From assembly GCA_013239625.1 (NCBI GenBank), contig MU053873.1, forward strand, positions 3,362,524 to 3,426,523: a stretch of DNA of 64,000 nt, given 5' to 3'. The DNA comes from Lama guanicoe. Taxonomy: Eukaryota. The number at the start of each line of letters is the position of its first letter. Position 1 is the stretch's first letter. The notes under the pieces are model-generated. The model had not been told where the DNA came from, searched no databases, and worked only from the letters and a program-made list of their open reading frames with translations. Both the position numbers and the translations under genes were made by a program. Below, in pieces: positions 3,701 to 53,550 of this stretch.

Positions 3701-6700
3701 TTCCTCAAGCATCTCGAATGACACAGAAACACTTCCCTGAATGCAACTGAGGAAAAAAAAATTGCACATAATTAAACCACGCAAGGTAAGCCTTAAGATT
3801 ACGCCAGCACATTTCAAAAAAAATTTTAATAGATTTACATCACATGAAAAAAAGTCCAATTTTGAGAATTCTGTCTTCATGATATGTGACAATTTCGAAA
3901 TGTCAGAAAAAAATCAATTCCACCAAAAATTCAACCGTATTGGATTGGCCCCACTATAAATTTCAAGTGAAATCAAAATACCATCAGGAAAAAAAAAAAA
4001 CCACACTTTGATCTTCCTGATAGTTAAACCACTGTTGTCAATTGGTTAATGAGAATTTTTAATAGCCAGCGAGGGCCTTAAAACAATTGTCTTCAATAGC
4101 TGCACAGCATATTTCAAACCACAAATCAAGCTACGTCTGGCTTAAAACCAATCGTTGCCTGTGGTTGTTGCTCTTGATTGATTTACCTTTTCCAGTTTTG
4201 TTGCTGTCTTTCTGGAGCAGACTGCTTCCTTTCTTCAGCGAGCCCTGACATTTGTCCCTTATCTTTATGTACAGAATTTGAAATTGTCATGGCTGTGAAC
4301 TGTCCAATTACAGGCACAAGCAGTGAAATTCACATTAGCAGTGAGACAACAGCCGACTTCTACCGGTTTTGCTGAAAAATCATACTTAAACATGATATAG
4401 AAGGAAAAACCATGAGTCCCAAAGACGCAAGAGGATAAATGCACCAACGAGAATGTTTTCAGTGAAAAAAAAAATAACCTTCAGTTCCCAGAAGTTTTCA
4501 ATTTATTCCATAGATGCTGTAGAGCAGCTTAAAGTCATCGATTATTTTTAGGCTTTGGTTTCATGATTCCTTTGAAATATGAAATCAAGACTTACTATTA
4601 CCATGATTTTATAAAACACATGAACTTTGATGATCTTCTGTGACAATATTAAACTAGCCCGACCAGACAGATATAAAATAATAAGAACACTTGTGCTCAA
4701 TTTTGTCCTTTTTAATGGTCCAGATGTAGGTGGGGTCAAACACCTAGGAATGATGCAACACTCTTAAAACCTAAAACAGCCACTTATACCAAGACTTTTA
4801 AACCAACTGACATCTTTGGCCAGGTGGGCAGCAGGTACAGGCCCAGAAAGGTCCCAGAATTGTCTTCTGTCTGGCAGCAGAAGGGCTGCAGACACGAGCT
4901 CAGCTGGAACACTGGACTCTCCTGGGCCGCCTAACCAGACCCCAACACACCTGGATACCCCCCTAAAAAGCCGCCTGTCCTAACCTCACAGAGTACATTT
5001 AATAAATTACAACCACGTTGATGCATTTCTCAACCATGAATTTATCCATCAAACTCAAGATGGGGGAGAGCAAAACTTTACTTGGAATAAATCTGAGGCA
5101 AAAGGGCTCTCAGGGTATTTCTAATTCAGTTTTCTTTTCCAAAGGGAAGATAACCTTAATGTTCTACTCCAGAGCATAAATGATACTTTGCAAAGAGATG
5201 CGAATCAGCGTAGCTGATTCCGTACGGGTGGAATGGGGGGACGCCAAGCTCAGACCCGGAAGGAGTCCGTGCACCTTCTGCACATGAGGCTAATGCTCTA
5301 GTCTGTCCAGCAGAGGCAGAGGCTCCGTGATTTCTAAACTGTGATTACCCATCTCTGAACTGAAAGTACTAAGCACACATGACCTTGAGACAGAGCCCTT
5401 GACCACAGGAGTGACAGCTACAGTCGACTGTGCCAGGGAAGACGCTCACTCTTCAGGAAGAACAACTGCTTTTCTGTCTCTGGTGGATTTGTGATATTTA
5501 ACATTTTTTCAGAAAAACAGAATTTGAATACCGTGCTTCCCTTTTAAATCGGGGGATTCCACGTAAGTAGTACCCCCGCCCCTCCTGCACTGGAAACAGC
5601 ACATAGTGGAACACATATGTGAAACCCCAACTAGTGGCTGAGACAAATTGTAAACCTCCAAATTTCTTTTCCAAATTAATTCCTACGAAATAAAAGGCTC
5701 TTTCAGTAATTATCTTCCAGACTCTCAAAACATCATTTCATTAAAAAGGACTTAACTTTCCCAGTGAAAGAGGCACACGAATGTCAACACAAACATTTGG
5801 AACCACCAAAAATATCGAGGACAGGATGCAGATAATTAGGATGTCAAGTTATTTATATTGTTAGTAGTTGACTTAGAAACATACAATTCAATTGCACTAA
5901 GAATAGGACAAATAAGTGGACTTTAAAAATTACCGTTACTATTTTTAGTCTGACGGCACGGAGGATTCTGCTGGGAAACACATTGGTTCTGACAACTCAG
6001 CACTTATTTGGGGCCTGAAACAAATCACGGGGAGCGGGGGCCACTGGGATTAGGGAAACGGCCTTTATGCTGTGACACTGTCAGAATGAGTCACCCAGTG
6101 CAAAGAATTATTCACTAACGACAGCTGACCACCACCACAGGTCAAGATACGCAGTTAACCCATTTTGACACATTCGTTCTTTTCTTCTTTTTTCAATAGA
6201 ATTCATTTTAAATTATACTAAAATGTAAAACAGAGTTTCCTTCCTTAATACATCCACGACTGAGATGCTTCCTGAGGTCAGGCAGAGGGAACCAGAGTTG
6301 CTGGGTCCCACAACTGCTTCCTGTCCAAACCCAAGACCGGCTCAACCACCCCCCTCCCAAAGCGTTCCTGGGCACCCAGACACGAGAAAGTGCTGATTAC
6401 TGGAAGGTTTTTGAAAATCGCTATTGCCTTGAAATGGACAACACCAAAGCTGCTGGAAACCTTCCCAACCATCTACTGTCCGACACCTTCGATGCTGAGC
6501 GACTTCTGTGCCCTCAGAGGACCCGCTGCCTCGGTTCCCAGCTGCCGAAGCTCCCTGTTGGGGACTGGCCTGTACCTATGGGGGCAGCACACACAGTGGG
6601 GGCCCAGGTGCGACCCTTTTGGAAAATCTCTGCAGCTTTCAATGCCTGGGCAATGAGAGGCCAGGTCTGAAGTACACAGAAGATGCACCCGGTGATCTGC

Positions 6701-7177
6701 CACCCCTGCCCCGTGGCCTGGAGCAAAGACGTCTAAAGCCAGCAGTGGCTGCTTGTGGACCAAAAATGGCAACGCGGGGGCAATCTATTACCCAACTTGG
6801 CAGACGGTCACATCCTCTTTTGGCAAGTCTGAGATACGTTTTGTGTCAGACGTTAAAAAATGAAGTGGTCAGTAGGAACCACCTCAAGTTCTAGATTCAC
6901 CTACAACCAAAAGGATGTGTGGCAAAGAAAAAGCTTCCATTTCTTCAGTAGTTTTGAGGGCGGACAGATGCGATGGAGGCAGGTGGCCCCCAGAAGGGGA
7001 GGGAGGCGACCCCGAGACTGGGGGTAGTCACCCCTCCTCGCAGAAGCATCTCGGAGTCCTGGGGGCCCCTGAGCCACGGAGAATCCCGTGGGTGAGAGCA
7101 TCGACCTCCTCCTTGCACCTCTCCCCAAGGCTGAGCAGCCCGGTGTGGACTTTCCGGGACTGTCCCGGTCCAGGCTG
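737..7177 (-). other. GRK3: Probable long (~6.4 kb) GRK3 3' UTR
   Basis: Follows the stop codon. No recognisable young SINE or L1, in contrast to the introns. AU-rich blocks. Ends at a candidate poly(A) signal; the 3' end position is inferred. Confidence 0.6.
754..759 (-). terminator. Candidate distal polyadenylation signal AATAAA
   Basis: Minus strand reads ...TGAAAAAATAAAAGGATGGG..., followed ~25-45 nt downstream by GU-rich GTTTCTGCTGATTTGATGG; TGTA motif upstream near 925. Confidence 0.55.
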
Positions 7178-7339
7178 TCAGAGGCCATTGCTGTTCCTGT
7201 GGCAGAGGGGCGGCTTCCAGAGCTCCACGACGGCGGACCGAGACTTGTTGAGGAACTTGGGGGCTCGGCGTAACAGCCGCTGGGCCTCCGTGAACGTCTC
7301 CGTCAGCTCCTTCTTCCACTGCACGAACTCTGGGTCACT
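7178..7339 (-). CDS. GRK3: GRK3 exon 21 coding part (162 nt): [53 protein letters not shown]
   Basis: Acceptor ATCCAG|AGT, stop TGA at 7178-7180; PH C-terminal helix with conserved Trp. Confidence 0.96.
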
Positions 7340-10300
7340 CTGGATGAAAACACACAGGGAAGAGGGGTTGGGACAGTGTCACCTGCTTTGCCCACAGACG
7401 TGGATGCCTCTGGCAAGTCCCAATGTCCTCAGAATCCCCCACTTCAACCCACAACCCCTGAGAAATCACAGCCTGCATCCCTCCCTGCAGTGGGATAACT
7501 GGGGGACACAAGAGGAATTCCTCCAGGGTCCCCTTGCCCAGAGAAGGGACAGGCAGCACCACGCCCTTCAGAGAAGTCTCGTGTAATCCTCCAGGAGAGT
7601 CACCGCTTCTCCTGTGTTGAGAGATTACCTATGATTTCTGATGTCTAAGACAACTCGGAGTCCATAAAATAATATACGAGGAGGAGTTCTGACAAATTTA
7701 AAAAGCACTTTTGCGTGTGCAATGAAGCCATGAAGTAATTAAACATATTTTTTCTATCAACTATTGGTTTAGCTCTCTAAATATGCTCTTTACACACACA
7801 CACACACACAGTACCCCAGTAGAAAAGTGTCGAAATCATGAAGTAATTAAACACATTTTTGTCTTATAACAATAATATAATGAAAAACAATATGAAAAGG
7901 AATATATCTGTGTAACTGAATCACCATGCTGTACACCAGAAATTAACACCTTGTAAACCGACTATACTTCAAAAAAACAAAACATATTTTTGTATCTACT
8001 ACTGCTTTCTCTCTCTAAATACACTCTTTTCTCACACACAGTCCCACAGGTCCCCCCCCACCCCAACGAACCCAGAGTTCGTGCAGTGGAAGAAGGAGCT
8101 GACGGAGACGTTCACGGAGGCCCAGCGGCTGTTACAACCCCAACATCCCAGTAGAGATGTGTTCAGGAATTAAGTTTGGGACTTCATAGAACTTTGGGGA
8201 GAGAACGATGGTATCTCTCCTGAGAAAAGCTACTTGGGCACCTTCTGTTTATTTAAACACACAACCCTTGACTTCAAACATGCTGAAAGATCAGCTCAGA
8301 TCTGGACAACTGTGTTACAAATAAAATTCAAGGCCCCTATTGAATACTGGACCGTTTCCAGAGACGGTAATCACACGATTTCACGTCTTTCCTCCTGCCA
8401 TTTTCTAATGTAAAATGTTTCTAAAATAACTATTAATTTGCCGAACACTTTGTATCTTTGAGGTTTCTTTGCTCCCTGGGCAAGTGAGAAAGCGTTTTTC
8501 AACCCGGCAGGCCTCTTCGCTACTTATGTCATTGCCCTAACTTTCCCCTCTGGAAAAAATAAAAATACGAACTCACCTCACACTGCAAGACAAATTGCTT
8601 CCCTCCTTTTATCCTCAACAAAATGCATTTTTTGTCTTTAATCTGAGTTTCTTCCACGGACAGAATCTGCTCCATTGTCAGTAAGTTTTGCTGACCGTAA
8701 AAATAAAAGATTATATGTTACCTCAGGTCATTTTATGATTTCTCAAGTTAAATGAATAAAATAACACCGAAACTATCAGCTTAGAAAAAGTAACCACAAA
8801 AATCAGCATTTTTCTTTCTTTGACGATATTCTAGAAGCGGAGGGAAATGGCTACAAAAGGAACATGTAATATTTTTGAATATTTTGAATGTTTGACAAAG
8901 ATTCAAAATATAATATCCCAAAGAAAACTGCCAAGAAAGGAACGTCTCTACGAGGCAAAAAGCAAAGCCGTTCCCTCGACGCAGAACTGACGTGTGAGCG
9001 TGAATTGCACGTGCACTTTCTGCATCACACACTCTGCTAGACTCTGTCCATCCTGCTGTGAGGGGACAATGAGACACTGCAGAAAATCTACATGAGCAAG
9101 AAGCGTGTCACTGGCTTTGGACCCAGCAGCTCGGTAAACATCTGGCCATGTTAGCTTGTGAGCCGGCGCCGTTCTGATCATATCGGTATGATGTTCTAAA
9201 TCCAGTTCTGAAAAGACTGTCCCACTATGTCTATAGCATTACTGCTTCAAGGGAATGCGATAGCGTCGTTGAGGACCTTACCAGCTTATGTTTTTTGGGA
9301 TAAATACTCCAGGAATCCTAAATGAAAAACAACACCATCATAAACTCACGTTTTCTTTTTCCTTACTTAACTTCACAAAGCTACCCGTGCATGTTAAACA
9401 TGGCTTCACCAATAGAACACTAAACACTCTTTCTAAAACCGAGATAATTTATTGCATCCGGTGTAAAACAGAAGATTTTTTTAAAACAGTTTTCAAATAT
9501 CCTGAAAAGTGAGATAATTCCCTTTCAATGTGTAAAACAGTGGCTTACCAGCAGATAGCATAGTGAATGCCTAATATGCCCAGGGCCACTCATTATCTGG
9601 AAATATACATTACATAATAATGCTTGCATGAATTATAATTCAGGTGCTAGTAAATATTCTACAATGTAAAAAATACATATGTAATATTATATAAAATACA
9701 ATTCTTATATTTATGTGATTACATATATTTTATATAATGTTATATATATCATACATAATACTTACCAGTACCTGAGTTATAATTCAAGACCCCCAGCATC
9801 TCATTAATCATAACGCAGATTCTAGATGTATTAGTTTTTAGAAAATGACCTTCCCAGCACCAGTGATAGTGAGACGATCTTGCTTATTTGTAAGGAATGT
9901 GCTAAGAGGCAGTAGCAAACACTCATAATCCAATGGCACCTTCACCAACAAGGAATTGCAAAACACATTCCACAGTCAAATCCACAAGATGCGGGATCAC
10001 AGCTTCCCCCGCTCTGGCCCCTGGTGAGCTGACGGTGCTGTTCCGATACACCAACCGTGTTTTTCACAGTTGGGACCGCTGTCCTGCTTACGACAACCAA
10101 CCCTTCCTTTCCCAAGAGTAGAAACCCTTCCCCTGGGTTGCCACCTTCCATGGAGACGAGCTCTGGGCCCCTCACACAGCAGGTGCTTAGTAAATGCTGT
10201 CTGTCTTGCTGAGCGGGATGGTGTGGATCAGAAATTTCCTTTTTCTTGTTCACAAACATTACCTCTCTAAAGGACTTTAGAGGGCAGCTGTATCTTTGCT

Positions 10301-46100: not shown

Positions 46101-49100
46101 GAAAACATAAAACTGCATAAAAATTATGCCACTGTTCTCATGCAAAACCTATACAGTTATTAAAAGGGTGATTCTGATAGATCTGCCCTTTCTGGGACTG
46201 GTCCCTCCAACTGAGAGATGAGACGCACAAGGTGGCAAGACACTGCAGAACCACCTTCTATGCAAATTCCACAAAGTGCACACAACGGAGGCAAATGGAA
46301 AGATGACACAGTGGGAGCTGAGTTAGACTATTTTTCCAATCTCATAAATCTTAGATTGTAAGACGTACACTTTGAAGACACGTGAGTGAGAAATTTCCAA
46401 TCAAAATAAAAAGCGACCTCAGCTACTCTGAAGCCTAAAGTTTGGGGACAATTCAGCAATTCCAGGAACTGCCATGGTAAAAAAAAAAGTCTACATTAGG
46501 GCATCTATGTTTTCCTAACAGTGGGCCATATGATTGGAGAGCCCAACAGATGCTGGCCATGTGAATTTTTTTATCAATAACGTCAGTGAGTAGAGAGGAC
46601 CCGTGCCGGAAATGTGAGTGTGAAACCTGACCAAGTGTGAGCAACTCTATAAAGAGGCTTTATTCATAAGCCCTTTCCTTTTGTCAATAATATCTCTGCA
46701 ATGCCCTGCTTCCCAAGTAGTTTTCATAGCATCAGACACGGTACAGAGGCAGATGGTCCTATGTCCATGGTAACGGGCGGTCAGACAAGAGCAAATGCCC
46801 ACTAACTGATGGATCCTGGCAAATGAAGGGTCAGATTCTTGAAGGGTTTTCCGAGACAACCCTTAAAATACCATGTCTGCCGCCAGGTGGGGACATCTGG
46901 CCCACAAGTTTCATCTTTGGTGCTCAGAGGACACGAGGACATGAAGACATGAGGACAGCAGGTCACAAGAAAGATCTACAGCAGAGATAAGGGATTTTTT
47001 TTTTAATATATGTTATGGCCTCTTGCTTCTAAATTCTGCCAAGAAATGGGATGGAGAGGGGAGGTTAAAAAGAAAAAAAAAATGTTCCAACAGTACCATT
47101 TAAGTAAGGAACTCAAAAAATATCTAGTTCTTTCTGTATCTAATTGCAAACTGGAGGAGGGTACGGCTCAGTGGTAGAGCACGTGCTTAGCGTGTACGAG
47201 GTCCTGGGTTCCATCCCCGGTACCTCCATTAAAATAAATTAATAAATAAACCTAATTACCTTCCTCCACAAAAAAAAATTTTTTTAATTAAAAGTGAAGT
47301 ACAGAATGTGCCCGAAGTAAAGAATTACTGACACTGAAAAGATAAAAGATGACAAAACACTAAGGAAATACACGTTGGAAAGTAGCCTATACTTGAGGAG
47401 TGCTTTTATGATTCTCAAAATAAAAATATACTTTACTAAAAATAAATAAATAAAAATAAGATGAAATCGTGGTCTAGTAAAAAGTGTCATCATTTATATT
47501 ATCTGACTGTACCTAATAATAAGGAAAAAAAAAAGAAGAACTGTACCAGGAAGGCAAAAAGACATGAGCACGTGGAGATTACATTACGCAGAAGTCCTGT
47601 ATTTTTCCTACTATTTCTGTTAAAGGGTCAATTACCGCTTAAAATATCCTTTCTTAAATAAACACATTCTTATATGAATATGAAAAAAGAGAATTAAAAC
47701 TCAAATTGTTTACAACCGGCTATGGGAGGATGGATTTTTCAGGCACGAAGCTGTGAGAAGGACATCTGTTTAGGCTGTGCTGTTACCCTGGGGAGTTCGC
47801 TCCCGGACAAAGTATTTTCTCATGAAGTCAAGCCAGAGGAAGTTTTTATTTAAAAAGAAAGAAAGGAAAAGATGATACTCACATGGATATTTAATTCTAC
47901 ATTTTTCCACTGGCAAAATCTGGTGAACTTGTCACTGAAAGAGAACATAAGGAGTTTAACTGAAAAGTTAAAATATCACATTAACTGGATTTAAAGAACA
48001 GTGTTTTCCGAGGAGCTAGAATTGGACTACTTGTGCAGCTGACCTCAAACGAAGTTAAGTTTCAGTAAACACTTTTTCACAGAGCATTCGCCCAGGATTC
48101 ATGGCTTCATTTTACGATTCTGATCAAAGACTTTGTGTTTCTCCTTTAATTGTCATTACATTACGGTAACATCTTTATCTGAATCAGCACTGCCCAACAG
48201 ATGGGTAACACAGACCGCATAGGTAATGTAATTTTAATAATATATTTTATCTAACCCAGTATATCAAAAGATTATCATTTCAACACATAATCAATATAAA
48301 ATTTTAATGAGGTAGTCTACATCTTTATTCTTGTATTGAGTCTTGAAACCCAGTGTGTATTTTGCATGTATAGTCCATCTTAATTCAGACTAGTCATATT
48401 TCAAGAGCCCGGTAGCTACATGGGGCTAGTGGCTCCCATATTGGCCCGTGCAGCTCTAAACAACCACACAAAATGAATGTTTACAAATAATCATAGGAGT
48501 AGCAACTACTTAAATCGTGCTTATCGCGTGCCAGGCCCTGCTCACTTACCCCTCCAACAACTCTACGGCCAGCTACTGCGGTGACCTCATTTTACAGCTG
48601 GGAAGATGAGCTTGCCCAAGGTCACACAGAGAGAGAACTGGGTGGAGCAGAATTTGAACTCAAACCAATTTCTGCCTCACAAAGACACAAACGGCGTAGG
48701 GGAGAAACCCTCAGACTAGAATCAGAAGGCAGAGTAAGTCAGTCTGTTGTAAGACCCCGCGGTTTACCCAATCACTGGCTGTTTTTTTCATTCCTGCAGT
48801 GAGAAAAATATCCAGCCCATATCTATTTAATAAAGACATTATTTTGATTGTTTTTTTTAAATTAATGAGCAACCGGTCTAGAAAGTGTTTGTTTTTGAAG
48901 GTTTTTCAAAAGAAACACGTTCTAGATTGAATACTCCTTAAAAGCACAGAAAGTTCTTGGGGGGTGTTGGGTTTTATTTAGCCCCTGGCATGATTCCTTA
49001 CACAGGCATAGTATTCAGGGTTCTATAAGTGAATGAATGCATGAAAATGAAAGGAAGAAAGAGAGGGAGAGAGGAAGGCAGGAAGGGAGGGAGGGAGCTC

Positions 49101-51162
49101 TTACAAAGTGCAAGTTACAGGTGTTATCAGCATACAACACAATGCCTTAAGGCATCCAAATATTCCCTGGCAGTTTCATCTAATGTGCTTGCTAAGGATC
49201 TTTTAAAAAACTATTTCTGAGGCTAATAATCAAATTAAGAATCAAAAGCAGAAGAACTCTTGTAGTTACACAGCATCTTTTTGCAATGAATCTGAAATGA
49301 CTTTTAAAGAGTATTTCATTGGTCCTCCCAACATCTATGAGGCTGGTAAAATGAAATTATATTTTTAGAGTTTCTGAGGGTTCTTTCAAACAATTTTTTA
49401 AAAGTAAAGTGACTGCAAAAGGTACAACCACATTAGGGGGTCTCAGCATTTATAAATCCCTCACTGTTACTTTGCTGTCCACTAGGTGTGCTAGCTCATA
49501 TCCTCTCTCCTCGCAGATTTTGGCATTCAGAATATTATATATGTATGAACAAGAACTGACTTTAAAGGCAAATCATTTACATAAAATGGTGACAGTTTCA
49601 GAAACTCCAGTGTGAGGTACATGCTTAAAATGCAAACGGCTTCCCTTATATTTCCTGTGACAATACGACTGAAAGGTGAACTCAGTGGGAGAAAATGATG
49701 GTGCAGGTTTACCAGGTGGGTACACAGTGGAGTTAACAAGACCTCTTCCCCAATTTTAAGTGCCATCCCCATGGCTCCCCTCTCCCCCAAGGATCACATA
49801 AAAGCTAGGTTGATCCAAAAGTTTGGGGAAAGTCAAGGTTTTTTAAAATTAATTAATTAACTTCTTTTTTTCTTTATTTAATTGAAGTCTAGTCAGTTTA
49901 CAAGGTTGTGTCAATTTCTGGTGTGCAGCATAATGCAGATTTCAGAACCAACAGCAACGGAGTCAGCTCAGGACTCGGGCTGAATCTCAGCCCTGAGTCC
50001 TCAGTTTGGTTCCACTGCTATTTGGCAAAGTCTCAGTCCTAGCTCAGAAAAGTGCAACCATTTGTATGCATATTAGTTTCCCAAAGGACTGACTCTACCC
50101 CAGGATAAAATTATCTCTTAAATTCTGGTAGAATCATAACACAATTTAAAAAAAAAATTACTTCAGTTCTGTGAACACGTGGAGGGAAAAAAAAACCACT
50201 GCGCTGAAGCATTTGTTCTTAAAGGGCAGTTACTGAACAGCTGCCTGCTGCTCTGTGATGAGGCGCAATCATCACGTTCATTGTCAAGAAATTAGCCAAG
50301 TTGCTGGAGAAAAGTACAGTCAGTGTGAATGCAGATGTGGTTTTGGAAAGTCCGATTCCAAAGGTGCATTACAACAGAGGAAAACACAAAGTACTGAAGA
50401 ACTGGCTCTTCGGGGCTTGAGGATCATAGGAAGACTTCTACAGGCATTACTGAAAATTTTATATGACAAACACAATTTATAGTTTGAGTAACCCAAACAG
50501 ACATGTTTATCAGGCATATTGATGATATACATGACCACAGACATTTGCTGATACCCTTAAATCCTAAAAGATGAAGAGAAGGCTTGAACCACTTTGAAAG
50601 ATATGATTTCAAAGTCTAAACAAACGAATTAGATACAGAGTCATGCCTGCATTAGTAAAGGTGTCCCAAAAAGATACTTTTAATTCTGAGGTTCCCTATT
50701 TTATGTAAATTTTAGACCATTTTGAAGCTAAAGAACTAAAGATCAGAGGGACAGTAAATATACAAATTCTAAATTATAAAGTATCGAGGAAAGAGTCTAA
50801 TACAAAGCCTGGCACATAGCACATGGCCAATAAATGTTTGTTGAATGAATAAATTAATACAATTAAGGCCAGCACTTATTAAGTAAAATGAGGACTACCT
50901 ACACAGTACAAGATTTTATTATGCATACTAGTATAATGTTACATGCCAAACATATCTCAATAAAAACATATATATATACGTATACTTTAATTTTTTATTT
51001 TTATTTTATCTTGGGGGGATAATTAGGTATTTATTTGTTTATTTTATTTATATGGAGGTACTGGGGATTGAACCCAGGACCTCATGCATGCTAAGCACGC
51101 TATCTACCATTGAGCTATATCCTCCCCGACCTTTAAATTTTTTTAAACTTTAGTTTCTGTAT

Positions 51163-51206
<44 letters not shown>

Positions 51207-53550
51207 AAACACACACACAGAGACACACACAGAAAGTTTCATACCTTTCTAGGAATTTTTGAAAAATGTTGCCTCGGAGACTTTCACAAATTTCTTCTAT
51301 ATATGGCTGGAAAGGATGGAAAAGAAATTCCACACTGCATAAATAGGAGCGTATTAAAGTGAAAAACACAAACAGATGAGATTTAGGGGAGGTGATGTTC
51401 CCAGTTATGCTGCTCCCCCCCCCAATATTGTCTTGTGCTTGCCCTTCTTGGCACCTGTCCAATTTTCATCAACAGATTCATGGTTACAATTATTTAGTAG
51501 TTATCTACGCCACCTGACAGCATGTTTCATGAAGGCAAGGACAGGTCTGTCCTGTGTGTCATTGTAGCCCTTCTGCCTAGCACAGCTCCCGGCAAGTCAC
51601 AGACACGTCGTCAATGCCCAGAGTCAGCTTCACGGGCATGTGACCAGTGTAGCCCCACAGAAGAGTCCAGAGCTCGGTTTGGTGTCACCATCCTGAAATT
51701 CTCAATAGTTTCTGAATAAGGGCCCCCACGTTTTCATCGTGTACCGGGCCCTGGAAGTTATGCAGCACATCCTATAAATTACACAGCACGCCCTGTAAAT
51801 TACTATTAATTACATAATTACTATTAATTACGATGATCATATATGATCAGCATTAACACTGAGTTTTAAAGACTAAAAGCTAAGGGACCCATGGAGTAAG
51901 TGGTTTTAAATTAGCTGTTTTACTTACTGATTTTCCATCTCTCATAATTATAGAGCTAAAGGTAACCATGGTGGAGGAGGAGGGAGTTAAGCCCAATGCT
52001 CATTTTGCACATAAGAGGCTGTAGGCAGGTGCATTCCCAAGGTCTTTGAGCAAGTTCATGGCTAAGCTGGGGTCAAGGCAAGAGGTCCCAGCTCACTTGG
52101 GCAGTGCTCTTTCCCTATGGGGAACAGTCTACCTCACTTCCGTGCCAATTTACCATCACCAAATAAACTGCATGAATTTATGTTCCACGAGACAGACTCC
52201 AAATCAAGAACTATAAAAATATCAAACGCCAACATTTCACAGCTCAGCCTAGAGTCAAGTAGATAGTTTTGGAAAATATCTTGATAGCCTACACTCATTG
52301 AATGAAGCAAATTTAATGTTTTCTGTGTCTTCGTAGATAATCCTGAAAATTTGTGAAAAAGAAGGACCAGATCAGGAACTGTCCATGGCACGAGACAGGA
52401 CGAGGAAGTCTGGAGAAGCCACTGTAACCAACGCAGGCAGTGAGACAACCATAGCTTGTCTGGGGCCTCACTTCCTGCCCAAGAAAGGAGACTCGGGGCT
52501 AGGCCAGCCTCCATCGCCTGCCAGGTGGGCCCTTGCTGTGCTGGTCAGGGCGCTCGTTCTGGCCACTGAAACCAAATGGACTTTGTTTCCTCCATGGTAA
52601 AAAGGAAAGCTGAACTATCTCTGAAGCTCTTTCCAGCTCTGAAATCCTATGATTCTGTGATGACATACAATACCGGTCTTAGCTAAGTCTTCTAGGTGCA
52701 AAAGACCAAGGGCCACAAGCCTCAAGAAGTTCCAAGGACTTCAAAAGACAAAACAGATCAAGTGCTCAAAGATCTATGAGAAGGCTGAACTTGTATATCA
52801 CAAATTTTTTATTTACAAAACCCATTGTTAATTTTTTTCATATTTTATCAAATATCTCATGCTTTCCGCTAATAAAATAAAAGGCAAAGGTCATGAGAAA
52901 TTCTTAAGGCTCAACATAACATACCACATTGCCACTTTTCAACAGAAAGAACCACAAAATGTGCCAGGGAGGCGGCACAAAAGCCAGAGTTCAATGGTGG
53001 GGTCGTGAACAAGCAACCTCACCTCTCTGATTCTCAGTTCCCTTAATCTATAAAATGGGATAATCATAATTGCAGTGAATTTGTGACAATTTAATAGGAT
53101 TAAAAATGGTGAGAGCCCTGCACCGGGCCTGTCACAGTTTAGGCACCTAAGCATAAGCCAAGACCCCTCTAGCCCCTGCCACCAAATATACTCATGTAAT
53201 GACTTATTTCCATAGTCAATTTGGAAATGAAAAGAATAAAAAAGCACTTTGTATTTACTTTCAGAGCATTTTTGTTTCACTACCTCCTTCTCCTTGATAA
53301 GAAATTTCAATTCAGTAGGGGAGGGTATAGCTCAAGCTCCAGAGCACATGCTTAGCATGCATGAGGTCCTGGGTTCAATCCCCAGTACCTCCTCTAAAAG
53401 TAAATCAATATATAAACCTAATTACCTCCCGTCCAACCAAAAAGGAAAGAAAGGGAGAAAGGGAGAAAGAGAGAGAGAGAGAGAGAGAAAGGAAGAAAGA
53501 GAGAAAGAGAGAGAGAGAGAGAGAGAGNNNNNNNNNNNNNNNNNNNNNNN

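What the first reader, a model, noticed from the sequence alone, without database searches (positions are those of the whole stretch)
7270..8144. Perfect 66-nt antisense copy of the last GRK3 coding exon inside the last intron: a possible built-in pre-mRNA hairpin over the final 3' splice site
Seen: 8070-8135 is a 66/66 reverse complement of 7270-7335, which begins 4 nt inside exon 21 and encodes the PH C-terminal helix ([21 protein letters not shown]). The arms are 734 nt apart, and the loop contains the pyrimidine tract and AG of intron 20. The copy is flanked by ACCCCAAC direct repeats (8060-8067, 8137-8144), has no poly(A), and sits beside a C-run. Established: long intramolecular duplexes are ADAR substrates and can mask splice sites and exonic enhancers, and this helix is part of the G-beta-gamma binding surface of GRK2/3. 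Inference: this is a very recent templated insertion (replication template switch or polymerase-theta-type repair), since it has no mismatches despite several CpGs. It could act as an editing-complementary sequence recoding exon 21 adenosines, slow terminal-exon splicing, or yield small RNAs against the host mRNA. An assembly chimera cannot be excluded from sequence alone.
Basis: partly seen in the sequence, partly recalled or inferred. Interest (0 to 1): 0.8.

Follow-up and report, generated by a model that had tools for sequence, protein, structure and literature searches.

The report
Backwards exon copy in GRK3 intron
A short stretch of the last protein-coding exon of the GRK3 kinase gene has been copied backwards into the neighbouring intron; it is a real DNA variant that some chromosomes still lack, most likely a harmless copying accident, though it gives the gene's RNA a long perfect hairpin whose effect nobody has measured.

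Summary
Window 8070-8135 is a 66/66 reverse complement of 7270-7335, which starts 4 nt inside the last coding exon of GRK3. It is the only perfect inverted repeat of 30 nt or more in the 64-kb window.

It is not an assembly chimera as a whole. Independently built contigs of 4 of 4 public DNA runs, with four organism labels from four studies, bridge the left junction. One run also carries the empty allele, so the insertion still segregates.

The window's right junction (8136-8145, including the right ACCCCAAC) is supported by 0 of 4 runs. Contig lengths, depth arithmetic and a k=31 simulation suggest the copy in reads is 81-84 nt and rejoins the flank at a TCC microhomology. This is inferred; the letters were not shown.

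The target sits inside a G-quadruplex-prone C-run. Best reading: a germline template-switch insertion of a known class (MMBIR or polymerase-theta type).

The predicted pre-mRNA stem is very stable. Editing, splicing and small-RNA effects were not tested, because no RNA run could be laid. Earlier notes of this scan describe similar inverted exon copies on other DNA.

The parts
7178..7339 (-). Last coding exon of GRK3, coding part: 53 codons plus the TGA stop at 7180-7178.
   Evidence: Translation. PDB match to GRK3 residues 636-688, E 1.2e-22.
7270..7335 (-). Source (exon) arm of the inverted repeat. It encodes GRK3 residues about 637-658, the C-terminal helix of the PH domain.
   Evidence: One search aligns query residues 1-35 to the last 35 residues of the GRK2 PH-domain structure 1bak. 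In 4 of 4 runs the exon-side contig ends exactly 30 nt inside this arm, at 7306 (records 1, 9, 17, 25).
7252..7269 (-). Probable extension of the source in public reads. The copy appears to run on 15-18 nt further into the exon than it does in the window.
   Evidence: Inferred. The repeat contigs are 84, 84 and 84 nt (X1, X14, X9) and 69 nt (X13), not 66. A k=31 simulation gives 66 nt for the window's junction and 84 nt for the longer copy.
7340..7360 (-). 3' splice site AG (7341-7340) and pyrimidine tract of the last intron. They lie in the loop directly beside the stem.
   Evidence: Sequence. The fold pairs 8069 with 7336 and 8066 with 7339 next to the stem.
8070..8135 (+). The inserted inverted copy. 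It reads as exon sense on the + strand, so it is antisense within the minus-strand pre-mRNA.
   Evidence: Its depth is 1.35 to 2.2 times that of the exon-side single-copy contig of the same run in the four runs.
8068..8069 (+). Two letters (GA) at the left junction that match neither the exon nor the empty allele. 8068 is A in run X9.
   Evidence: junction contexts. table 3: 8068 G>A, depth 14.5 of 14.5 in X9.
8043..8073 (-). C-rich tract on the + strand, which is a G-quadruplex motif on the minus strand. It holds the insertion site, and in the empty allele the motif spans both breakpoints.
   Evidence: Regex scan. It is 1 of 2 such C-rich motifs in 64 kb, and 329 of 64000 bases lie in any G4 motif.
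8060..8067 (+). Last 8 nt of the target before the insertion (ACCCCAAC). The left junction is 8067|8068.
   Evidence: Contigs 7931/7932-8099 in X13, X14 and X9, and 8038-8099 in X1, bridge it with 0-1 differences (table 8).
8136..8145 (+). Right-junction letters of the window (A, then the second ACCCCAAC, then A). They are not supported by the public contigs and may be a consensus or polishing chimera with the empty allele, or a third allele.
   Evidence: X1 has no contig covering 8106-8166, although one would be short and fully alignable. The depth budget of bin 8097-8137 closes without it, and bin 8138-8178 fits both alleles merging at 8146. See also the repeat-contig lengths.

Best explanation
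This is a real germline insertion that is still polymorphic.

Origin (inferred). During replication or break repair at a G-quadruplex-prone C-run in the last GRK3 intron, a growing DNA end left its template. It primed on the opposite strand about 0.73 kb away, inside the last coding exon, and copied 66 nt as assembled (probably 81-84 nt in reads). It then returned to within one base of where it had left. The result is a perfect inverted copy of exon sequence in the intron. This is the known class of template-switch or microhomology-mediated templated insertion (MMBIR/FoSTeS, or polymerase-theta end joining).

Consequence (predicted, not shown). The intron copy is transcribed first, as antisense. 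It can then zip onto the first 70-88 nt of the terminal exon and form a perfect duplex whose base lies 4 nt from the 3' splice site.

Function (most likely). None has been selected for. The variant is a tolerated repair scar. It may cause some ADAR editing, mostly low given the neighbouring bases, or some slowing of last-intron removal in carriers.
For: Shown:
- The 66/66 inverted match is unique in the window and in the genome.
- The left junction is bridged by contigs in 4 of 4 runs, with four organism labels from four studies.
- In X1 one contig joins 8059 to 8137. It skips 77 nt, 8 letters fit either side, and its depth is 10.6, against 8.6 for the insertion-bearing contig. This is the exact empty allele in a heterozygote.
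- Every contig end fits k=31 unitig behaviour: 8099 = 8069+30, 8038 = 8068-30, 7306 = 7335-29.
- A paralogous unit at 7802-7830 lacks the insert.
- The target lies in 1 of 2 C-rich G4 motifs of the window; motifs of either strand cover 0.5% of its bases.
- Fold: the duplex is -149 kcal/mol. It gains 115.5 kcal/mol over a fold with the intron arm blocked. Pair probabilities are 0.999 mean and 0.932 minimum.

Inferred:
- A longer copy with a TCC microhomology at the right junction, from the 84/84/84/69-nt repeat contigs, the depth budgets and the simulation.

From papers (passages read):
- Inverted templated insertions near their template are a recognised germline class, with about 100 events of 25 bp or more in each of two people (PMC8421209).
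- Template switching creates perfect stems in a single event (PMC8794818; PMC5453318).
- Replication blocks, including G-quadruplexes, give polymerase-theta scars with templated inserts (PMC4032859, PMC4654259).
Against: - The template lies 734 nt away. Published detectors look only within 100-200 bp, so no published size or distance distribution covers this case.
- As assembled, neither junction has microhomology. Both carry 1-2 unexplained letters and an 8-nt duplication, which looks more like fill-in of a staggered break.
- The microhomology reading depends on letters the tool did not print.
- No bridging contig for the right junction was seen in any run.
- Polymerase-theta scars at G4 sites in C. 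elegans are 50-200-bp deletions, not net insertions.
- The copy lies wholly within one exon, so a DNA template cannot be told from an RNA template.
- Neutrality is assumed, not shown. A perfect stem this long could well have a measurable RNA effect.
- No outgroup was available, so the empty allele could in principle be a secondary precise loss.
Confidence: 0.72

Rival explanations
1. A working editing-complementary or regulatory hairpin. The insertion is kept because the exon-intron duplex recruits ADAR to recode the G-beta-gamma-binding helix of GRK3, or because it tunes terminal-exon splicing and so GRK3 dosage.
For: - The stem is predicted to form with near certainty.
- 14 of the 16 exon-arm adenosines would change the amino acid if edited, among them K644, K645, Q642 and Q655.
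- Long double-stranded RNA is hyper-edited, and 45-bp intronic stems act as editing inducers (PMC5654063, passages).
- Residues 654, 657 and 658 of GRK2 touch or support the G-beta-gamma interface (PMC6823287, passages).
- The insertion allele is present in 4 of 4 runs, and the empty allele was seen in only 1.
Against: - No RNA evidence of any kind was obtained.
- The stem is perfect and the allele still segregates, which says young rather than selected.
- 9 of the 16 adenosines have a 5' G, the neighbour that ADARs disfavour (recalled).
- Promiscuous editing of 14 codons in a conserved helix would more likely do harm than serve a use.
- Four animals are no frequency estimate.
Confidence: 0.1
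2. An RNA-templated insertion. A broken or nicked minus-strand end primed by microhomology on GRK3's own transcript, and a reverse-transcribing polymerase (polymerase theta or L1 ORF2p) extended it, writing an antisense cDNA patch into the intron.
For: - The copy lies entirely within one exon and stops 4 nt short of the splice site, so nothing rules RNA out.
Against: - There is no splice junction, no poly(A) and no L1 endonuclease-type target.
- Inverted orientation beside a template in cis is the signature of strand switching on DNA (PMC8421209).
- By inference, transcript-bridged repair would be expected to give the direct orientation.
Confidence: 0.1
3. Capture of a free 66-nt DNA fragment at a staggered break, with the 8-nt overhangs filled in. 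This takes the window's sequence, with its ACCCCAAC duplication and 1-2 filler letters, at face value and amounts to end joining without template switching.
For: The window shows an exact 8-nt duplication, fillers of 2 and 1 nt, and no junctional microhomology.
Against: - The right-hand duplicate is supported by 0 of 4 runs.
- Repeat contigs of 84 or 69 nt are incompatible with that junction under k=31.
- A free fragment coming from only 734 nt away would be a coincidence.
Confidence: 0.05
4. The whole feature is an assembly artefact.
For: - The window differs from all 4 runs at 7517 (table 3).
- Its right junction is unsupported.
Against: - The left junction is present in contigs assembled independently from 4 of 4 runs in four studies.
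- The repeat contig has raised depth.
- In X1 a clean bubble holds both alleles.
Confidence: 0.02

Closest known systems
MMBIR-type templated insertions (MMB-TI; Osia et al. 2021, PMC8421209; passages read)
   Same: An insertion that is an inverted copy of a nearby template in cis. Such events occur as inherited germline variants shared between individuals, usually with no larger rearrangement.
   Different: The published signature and search tool require the template within 100 bp and microhomology at both junctions. Here the template is 734 nt away, the copy is 66-84 nt long, and microhomology is absent as assembled and only inferred (TCC) from the contigs.
Template-switch mutations, four-point model (Loytynoja and Goldman 2017, PMC5453318; Monttinen and Loytynoja 2022, PMC8794818; passages and one section read)
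   Same: A single switch-and-return event copies a fragment in reverse complement and creates a perfect inverted repeat, that is, an RNA hairpin, in one step.
   Different: Those scans covered 100-200 bp around mutation clusters, and the largest pattern named in the 2022 paper is 59 bp. Here the loop is about 0.73 kb, the source is a coding exon, and the product is an exon-intron duplex and not a compact hairpin such as a microRNA precursor.
Polymerase-theta end joining at replication blocks and G-quadruplexes (Roerink et al. 2014, PMC4032859; Lemmens et al. 2015, PMC4654259; passages read)
   Same: A G4-prone target and a templated insert drawn from flanking DNA. The same scars are seen in natural isolates.
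   Different: Those scars are 50-200-bp deletions with short inserts and a breakpoint at the first G of the motif. Here at most one base is lost, the insert is long, and the breakpoints lie inside the motif.
Intronic editing-complementary sequences and editing inducer elements (GluA2 Q/R, Gabra3 I/M; PMC5654063, passages read)
   Same: An intron segment pairs with, or lies beside, a coding exon, and ADAR acts before splicing.
   Different: The known elements are conserved, imperfect, 25-54 bp long and lie in the downstream intron. This one is perfect, young, polymorphic and in the upstream intron, and editing has not been observed.
Inverted exon copies noted earlier in this scan on other DNA (e1-7510086, e1-7513501)
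   Same: Small backwards copies of an exon lying near or inside the same gene, read there as template-switch scars.
   Different: Different genomes and genes. Those notes were not checked here. The present case adds direct evidence of both alleles in public runs.

Membership tests
Templated inverted insertion by template switching (MMB-TI / TSM) | [quoted passage not shown] | tested here: met
   66/66 match, 734 nt away on the same contig. These are the only two copies in the 2.05-Gb assembly.
Templated inverted insertion by template switching (MMB-TI / TSM) | An ancestral or alternative allele without the insert exists at exactly that site | tested here: met
   An X1 contig joins 8059 to 8137, with 8 letters that fit either side, at depth 10.6. 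The paralogous unit 7802-7830 lacks the insert. Polarity was not confirmed with an outgroup.
Templated inverted insertion by template switching (MMB-TI / TSM) | The template lies within the short range used by published detectors (100-200 bp) | tested here: not met
   The distance is 734 nt. The limits are stated in PMC8421209 and PMC5453318. This is an operational limit of the search tools, not a mechanistic one.
Templated inverted insertion by template switching (MMB-TI / TSM) | Microhomology at the switch junctions | tested here: inconclusive
   As assembled there is none: GA and A fillers. Contig lengths and depth favour a right junction at a 3-nt TCC shared by 7254-7252 and 8146-8148. The letters were not seen.
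ADAR editing substrate / intronic ECS | A stable duplex between an intron and the exon that holds the target adenosines | tested here: met
   In silico only. The duplex is -149 kcal/mol and the mean pair probability is 0.999. It appears in both the MFE and the centroid structure.
ADAR editing substrate / intronic ECS | A-to-G differences between RNA and DNA of the same individual | not tested
The RNA runs on offer (X15-X20) were contigs, which drop partial variants.
ADAR editing substrate / intronic ECS | Conservation of the pairing across species | not testable with these tools
   No relatives of this genome are held. Only closely related organism labels were found.
L1-mediated (target-primed) insertion of a transcript fragment | A poly(A) tail, a T-rich endonuclease target and a target-site duplication | tested here: not met
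   There is no poly(A), and the target is a C-run. The 8-nt duplication exists only in the window's letters, which 0 of 4 runs support.
Assembly artefact | No independent reads or contigs span the junctions | tested here: not met
   The left junction is spanned in 4 of 4 runs. The right junction as assembled is spanned in 0 of 4, so an artefact there remains possible.

The most novel reading that the evidence does not exclude
This may be the birth of a recoding editing site caught while still polymorphic. In one template-switch step, a coding exon gained a perfect intronic editing-complementary sequence. Carriers would then edit several codons of the G-beta-gamma-binding helix of GRK3 (for example K644/K645 to R, Q642/Q655 to R), or delay removal of the last intron, and non-carriers of the same population would not. 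That would be a natural allelic series for how exon-targeting ADAR substrates arise, and a cis-acting editing or splicing QTL with a known causal variant.
Probability: 0.15. Interest if true: 0.7.

Novelty: new member of a known kind. Interest (0 to 1): 0.35.

Why it matters
As a mutation it is ordinary. Templated inverted insertions are a recognised and fairly common class of germline variant.

Three things make this case somewhat useful:
- Both alleles are visible in public data, so the event is defined to within a base or so, except for its right junction.
- It lies far outside the 100-200-bp range that published detectors scan. It is an example of the longer-range events those tools miss, and it sits in a G4-prone tract.
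- Its source is a coding exon next to a splice site. Animals with and without it therefore form a ready-made experiment on what a perfect 66-84-bp exon-intron duplex does to editing and terminal-intron splicing in vivo.

It also flags a probable local consensus error in the assembly beside a heterozygous indel.

Tried and rejected
- RNA evidence. One search listed six likely RNA runs (X15-X20; X15's kind was only a guess), each holding 0.20-0.29 of the sampled words. None was laid, because the only read-laying run went to four DNA runs. Nothing can be said about expression, editing, intron retention or small RNAs.
- Cover to the right of the insert. Depth is 0 at 8179-8547 in all 4 runs, and from 8138 on in X13, X14 and X9. 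The tool warns that a filter leaves records out, so this hole is no evidence either way.
- Alternative haplotigs. Searches of the window's own assembly with the right flank (8146-8500) and the left flank (7985-8067) found one place each, the window itself.
- Known RNA families. Rfam on 6800-8800 gave only a SCARNA7 match at 17.7 bits, against a gathering score of 65, E 0.12. This is chance.
- Tandem Repeats Finder. It found only an (AC)n array at 7792-7810.
- Earlier notes near this place. There were none.
- Literature. One search (GRK3, ADRBK2, A-to-I, camelid, inverted repeat; 3 or more terms required) returned a single unrelated paper. I found nothing in print on this variant, but that one search is all I ran for it.
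- L1 or transposase integration was rejected: no poly(A), no terminal repeats, a C-run target, and an unsupported duplication.
- Zygosity of X13, X14 and X9. Their contigs run unbroken through 8067|8068, which suggests homozygous carriers. Contigs show presence and not absence, and repeat-contig depth (1.6-1.9 times) lies between the values expected for one and for two inserted copies, so I do not claim it.
- Outgroup dating.
Full report
**1. The observation**

The window holds a perfect inverted repeat. Arms 7270-7335 and 8070-8135 are 66 nt long, 100% complementary and 734 nt apart.

The gene lies on the minus strand. After the AG at 7341-7340 the exon starts at 7339. It reads [53 protein letters not shown] and then stops. 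The best match among solved structures is a chain named G protein-coupled receptor kinase 3, residues 636-688 of 688, E 1.2e-22. GRK2 chains score about 2e-13. The first 35 residues align to the end of the GRK2 PH-domain structure 1bak. So this is the last coding exon of GRK3, and the arm starts 4 nt inside it.

Chance is excluded:
- Across the 64-kb window only three inverted pairs of 30 nt or more lie within 5 kb of each other. The other two are 79% and 87% complementary.
- In the 2.05-Gb assembly the 66-mer occurs only at these two places.

**2. Is it real DNA?**

One search found 14 runs that hold half or more of the sampled words of window 5500-9500. They carry five organism labels (A-E) and come from six studies. 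All are kept as contigs.

I laid four of them on window:7400-8600: X1 (label A), X13 (B), X14 (D) and X9 (E), each from a different study. I chose that stretch so that it held only the intron arm.

The left junction is bridged in 4 of 4 runs:
- Contigs 7931-8099 (X13, X14) and 7932-8099 (X9) have 0, 0 and 1 differences.
- Contig 8038-8099 in X1 has 0 differences.

In X1 a further contig joins 8059 directly to 8137. It skips 77 nt, and 8 letters fit on either side. Its depth is 10.6, against 8.6 for the insertion-bearing contig and 24.6 for the shared flank. That is the exact empty allele, so X1 carries both forms and the insertion is a segregating variant.

All contig ends behave as k=31 unitigs should:
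- 8099 is 30 past 8069.
- 8038 is 30 before 8068.
- The exon-side contigs end at 7306, 30 nt inside the exon arm, in 4 of 4 runs.

X9 reads A, not G, at 8068, a CpG position, at full depth.

All four runs read C where the window has A at 7517. The window's individual or its consensus therefore differs from all four.

**3. The right junction does not check out**

No listed contig bridges 8135|8136 in any run. Depth is zero to the right of 8138 in three runs, but the tool warns that such holes prove nothing. Two other facts do bear on the junction.

*Repeat-contig length.*
- The contig that carries the repeat is 84 nt long in X1, X14 and X9 and 69 nt in X13. Only its first 66 letters lie on 8070-8135.
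- In a k=31 graph the repeat unitig must end where the exon path and the intron-copy path part.
- A simulation on window slices gives 66 nt for the window's junction. It gives 84 nt if the copy runs on along the exon to 7255/7252 and rejoins the flank at 8146.

*Depth arithmetic.*
- Summing contig depth times letters reproduces table 2 to within 0.2% in nine bins across the four runs.
- In X1 the bin 8097-8137 closes with no room for a contig 8106-8166. The window's junction would produce such a contig, and it would be short and fully alignable.
- The bin 8138-8178 (734 depth-letters) fits both allele contigs ending at 8175, which means the alleles merge at 8146. That model gives 661-730, depending on where the aligner clips. 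The window's junction gives 557.

I therefore think the copy in these animals is 81-84 nt and ends in a 3-nt TCC shared by exon 7254-7252 and flank 8146-8148. X13 has one mismatch at the 4th base past 8135, another CpG.

The window's letters 8136-8145 resemble the empty allele. They may be a consensus or polishing chimera from a heterozygous source, or a third allele. This paragraph is inference: the 18 extra letters were never printed, and I put the longer-copy reading at about 0.7.

**4. Surroundings**

The insert sits in the second unit of an old local duplication. Unit 7724-7830 is repeated at 7832-8162 with 72-90% identity, and the first unit lacks the insert.

A very high-copy repeat at about 7851-8014 splits the second unit. 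Summed contig depth there reaches 10^5-10^6, against 8-28 nearby.

The target itself is a C-rich tract at 8043-8073. It is one of only two such minus-strand G-quadruplex motifs in the window. Motifs on either strand cover 329 of 64000 bases. In the empty allele the motif spans both breakpoints.

**5. How it arose (inferred)**

An inverted copy of a template in cis is the signature of a polymerase switching strands and returning. The closest descriptions are:
- MMBIR-type templated insertions. These are inverted copies of a template within 100 bp, found as germline variants, with about 100 events of 25 bp or more in each of two people, many of them shared (PMC8421209, passages).
- The four-point template-switch model. 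It requires only that the middle fragment be copied in reverse complement, and it was searched within 100-200 bp (PMC5453318, passages and Methods section).
- Follow-up work arguing that such events create perfect RNA stems in one step (PMC8794818, passages).

The G4-prone target fits replication stalling. In C. elegans, replication blocks and G-quadruplexes give polymerase-theta scars with templated inserts (PMC4032859, PMC4654259, passages). Those scars, however, are deletions of 50-200 bp.

Replicative switching cannot be separated from break repair here. DNA cannot be separated from the gene's own RNA as template either, because the copy stays within one exon. I prefer DNA because of the inverted orientation and the nearby template in cis.

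Rough age, from recalled mammalian rates: an 84-nt copy with seven CpGs should pick up about one change every few million years. Zero or one change per lineage, together with a surviving empty allele, says young but not private.

**6. What it does (predicted only)**

In the pre-mRNA the antisense copy is transcribed first, then 734 nt of loop that holds the pyrimidine tract and the AG, then the exon arm.
- The fold of 7200-8200 puts all 66 pairs in both the MFE and the centroid structure.
- Pair probabilities are 0.999 mean and 0.932 minimum. The two arms alone give -149 kcal/mol. Blocking the intron arm costs 115.5 kcal/mol.
- The stem base lies 4 nt from the splice site.

Long duplexes are hyper-edited by ADARs, and 45-bp stems act as editing inducers (PMC5654063, passages).
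- The exon arm has 16 adenosines, and 14 of them would change the protein if edited.
- They fall in the helix where GRK2 residues 654, 657 and 658 touch or support the G-beta-gamma interface (PMC6823287, passages).
- But 9 of the 16 have a 5' G, which ADARs disfavour by my recollection.

No RNA run was laid, so editing, retention and small RNAs remain untested. The allele is present in 4 of 4 animals, which argues that it is tolerated.

**7. Verdict**

- The insertion is real and polymorphic.
- The flanking 8-nt repeat is probably not part of the event.
- The proposed RNA functions are open.

This is a new member of a known kind. Earlier notes of this scan describe similar backwards exon copies on other DNA (e1-7510086, e1-7513501) and an RNA-templated exon copy in this same genome (e1-7788518). 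I did not check them.

Interest is modest. Its value lies in being a well-defined natural test case for what an exon-intron duplex does.

Noticed in passing
window 7517: The window reads A, but all 4 runs laid read C at full depth (27.9, 27.1, 15.1, 8.11). This is either a private variant of the assembled animal or a consensus error.
   Followed up: no
window 7851-8014: A very high-copy interspersed repeat. Summed contig depth reaches 10^5-10^6, against 8-28 nearby, and thousands of contigs were laid there. It looks like a SINE-type element inserted into the second unit of a local duplication, with similar short direct repeats on each side (around 7852-7862 and 7983-7993).
   Followed up: partly
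window 7724-7830 versus 7832-8162: An old local tandem duplication of a unit of about 108 nt (families D1, D3 and D4, 72-90% identity). It supplies an internal paralogue that lacks the exon copy.
   Followed up: partly
window 7687 and 7715: Run X9 (organism label E) differs from the window and from the other three runs at these two intron positions (T>A, G>A). It is the most diverged of the four.
   Followed up: no
window 8179-8547: No contig of any of the 4 runs was laid here, although the assembly is continuous. The likely cause is the tool's filter dropping a long contig. It is unexplained and is not used as evidence.
   Followed up: no
window 47142-47242 / 51039-51139 and 51030-51097 / 53349-53416: Two further inverted pairs (101 nt at 79%, 68 nt at 87%) that share a segment near 51030-51139. 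They look like copies of one interspersed repeat in opposite orientations within upstream introns.
   Followed up: no
window 7764-7926, minus strand: A weak Rfam match to SCARNA7: 17.7 bits against a gathering score of 65, E 0.12. It overlaps the (AC)n array and the high-copy repeat and is taken as chance.
   Followed up: no
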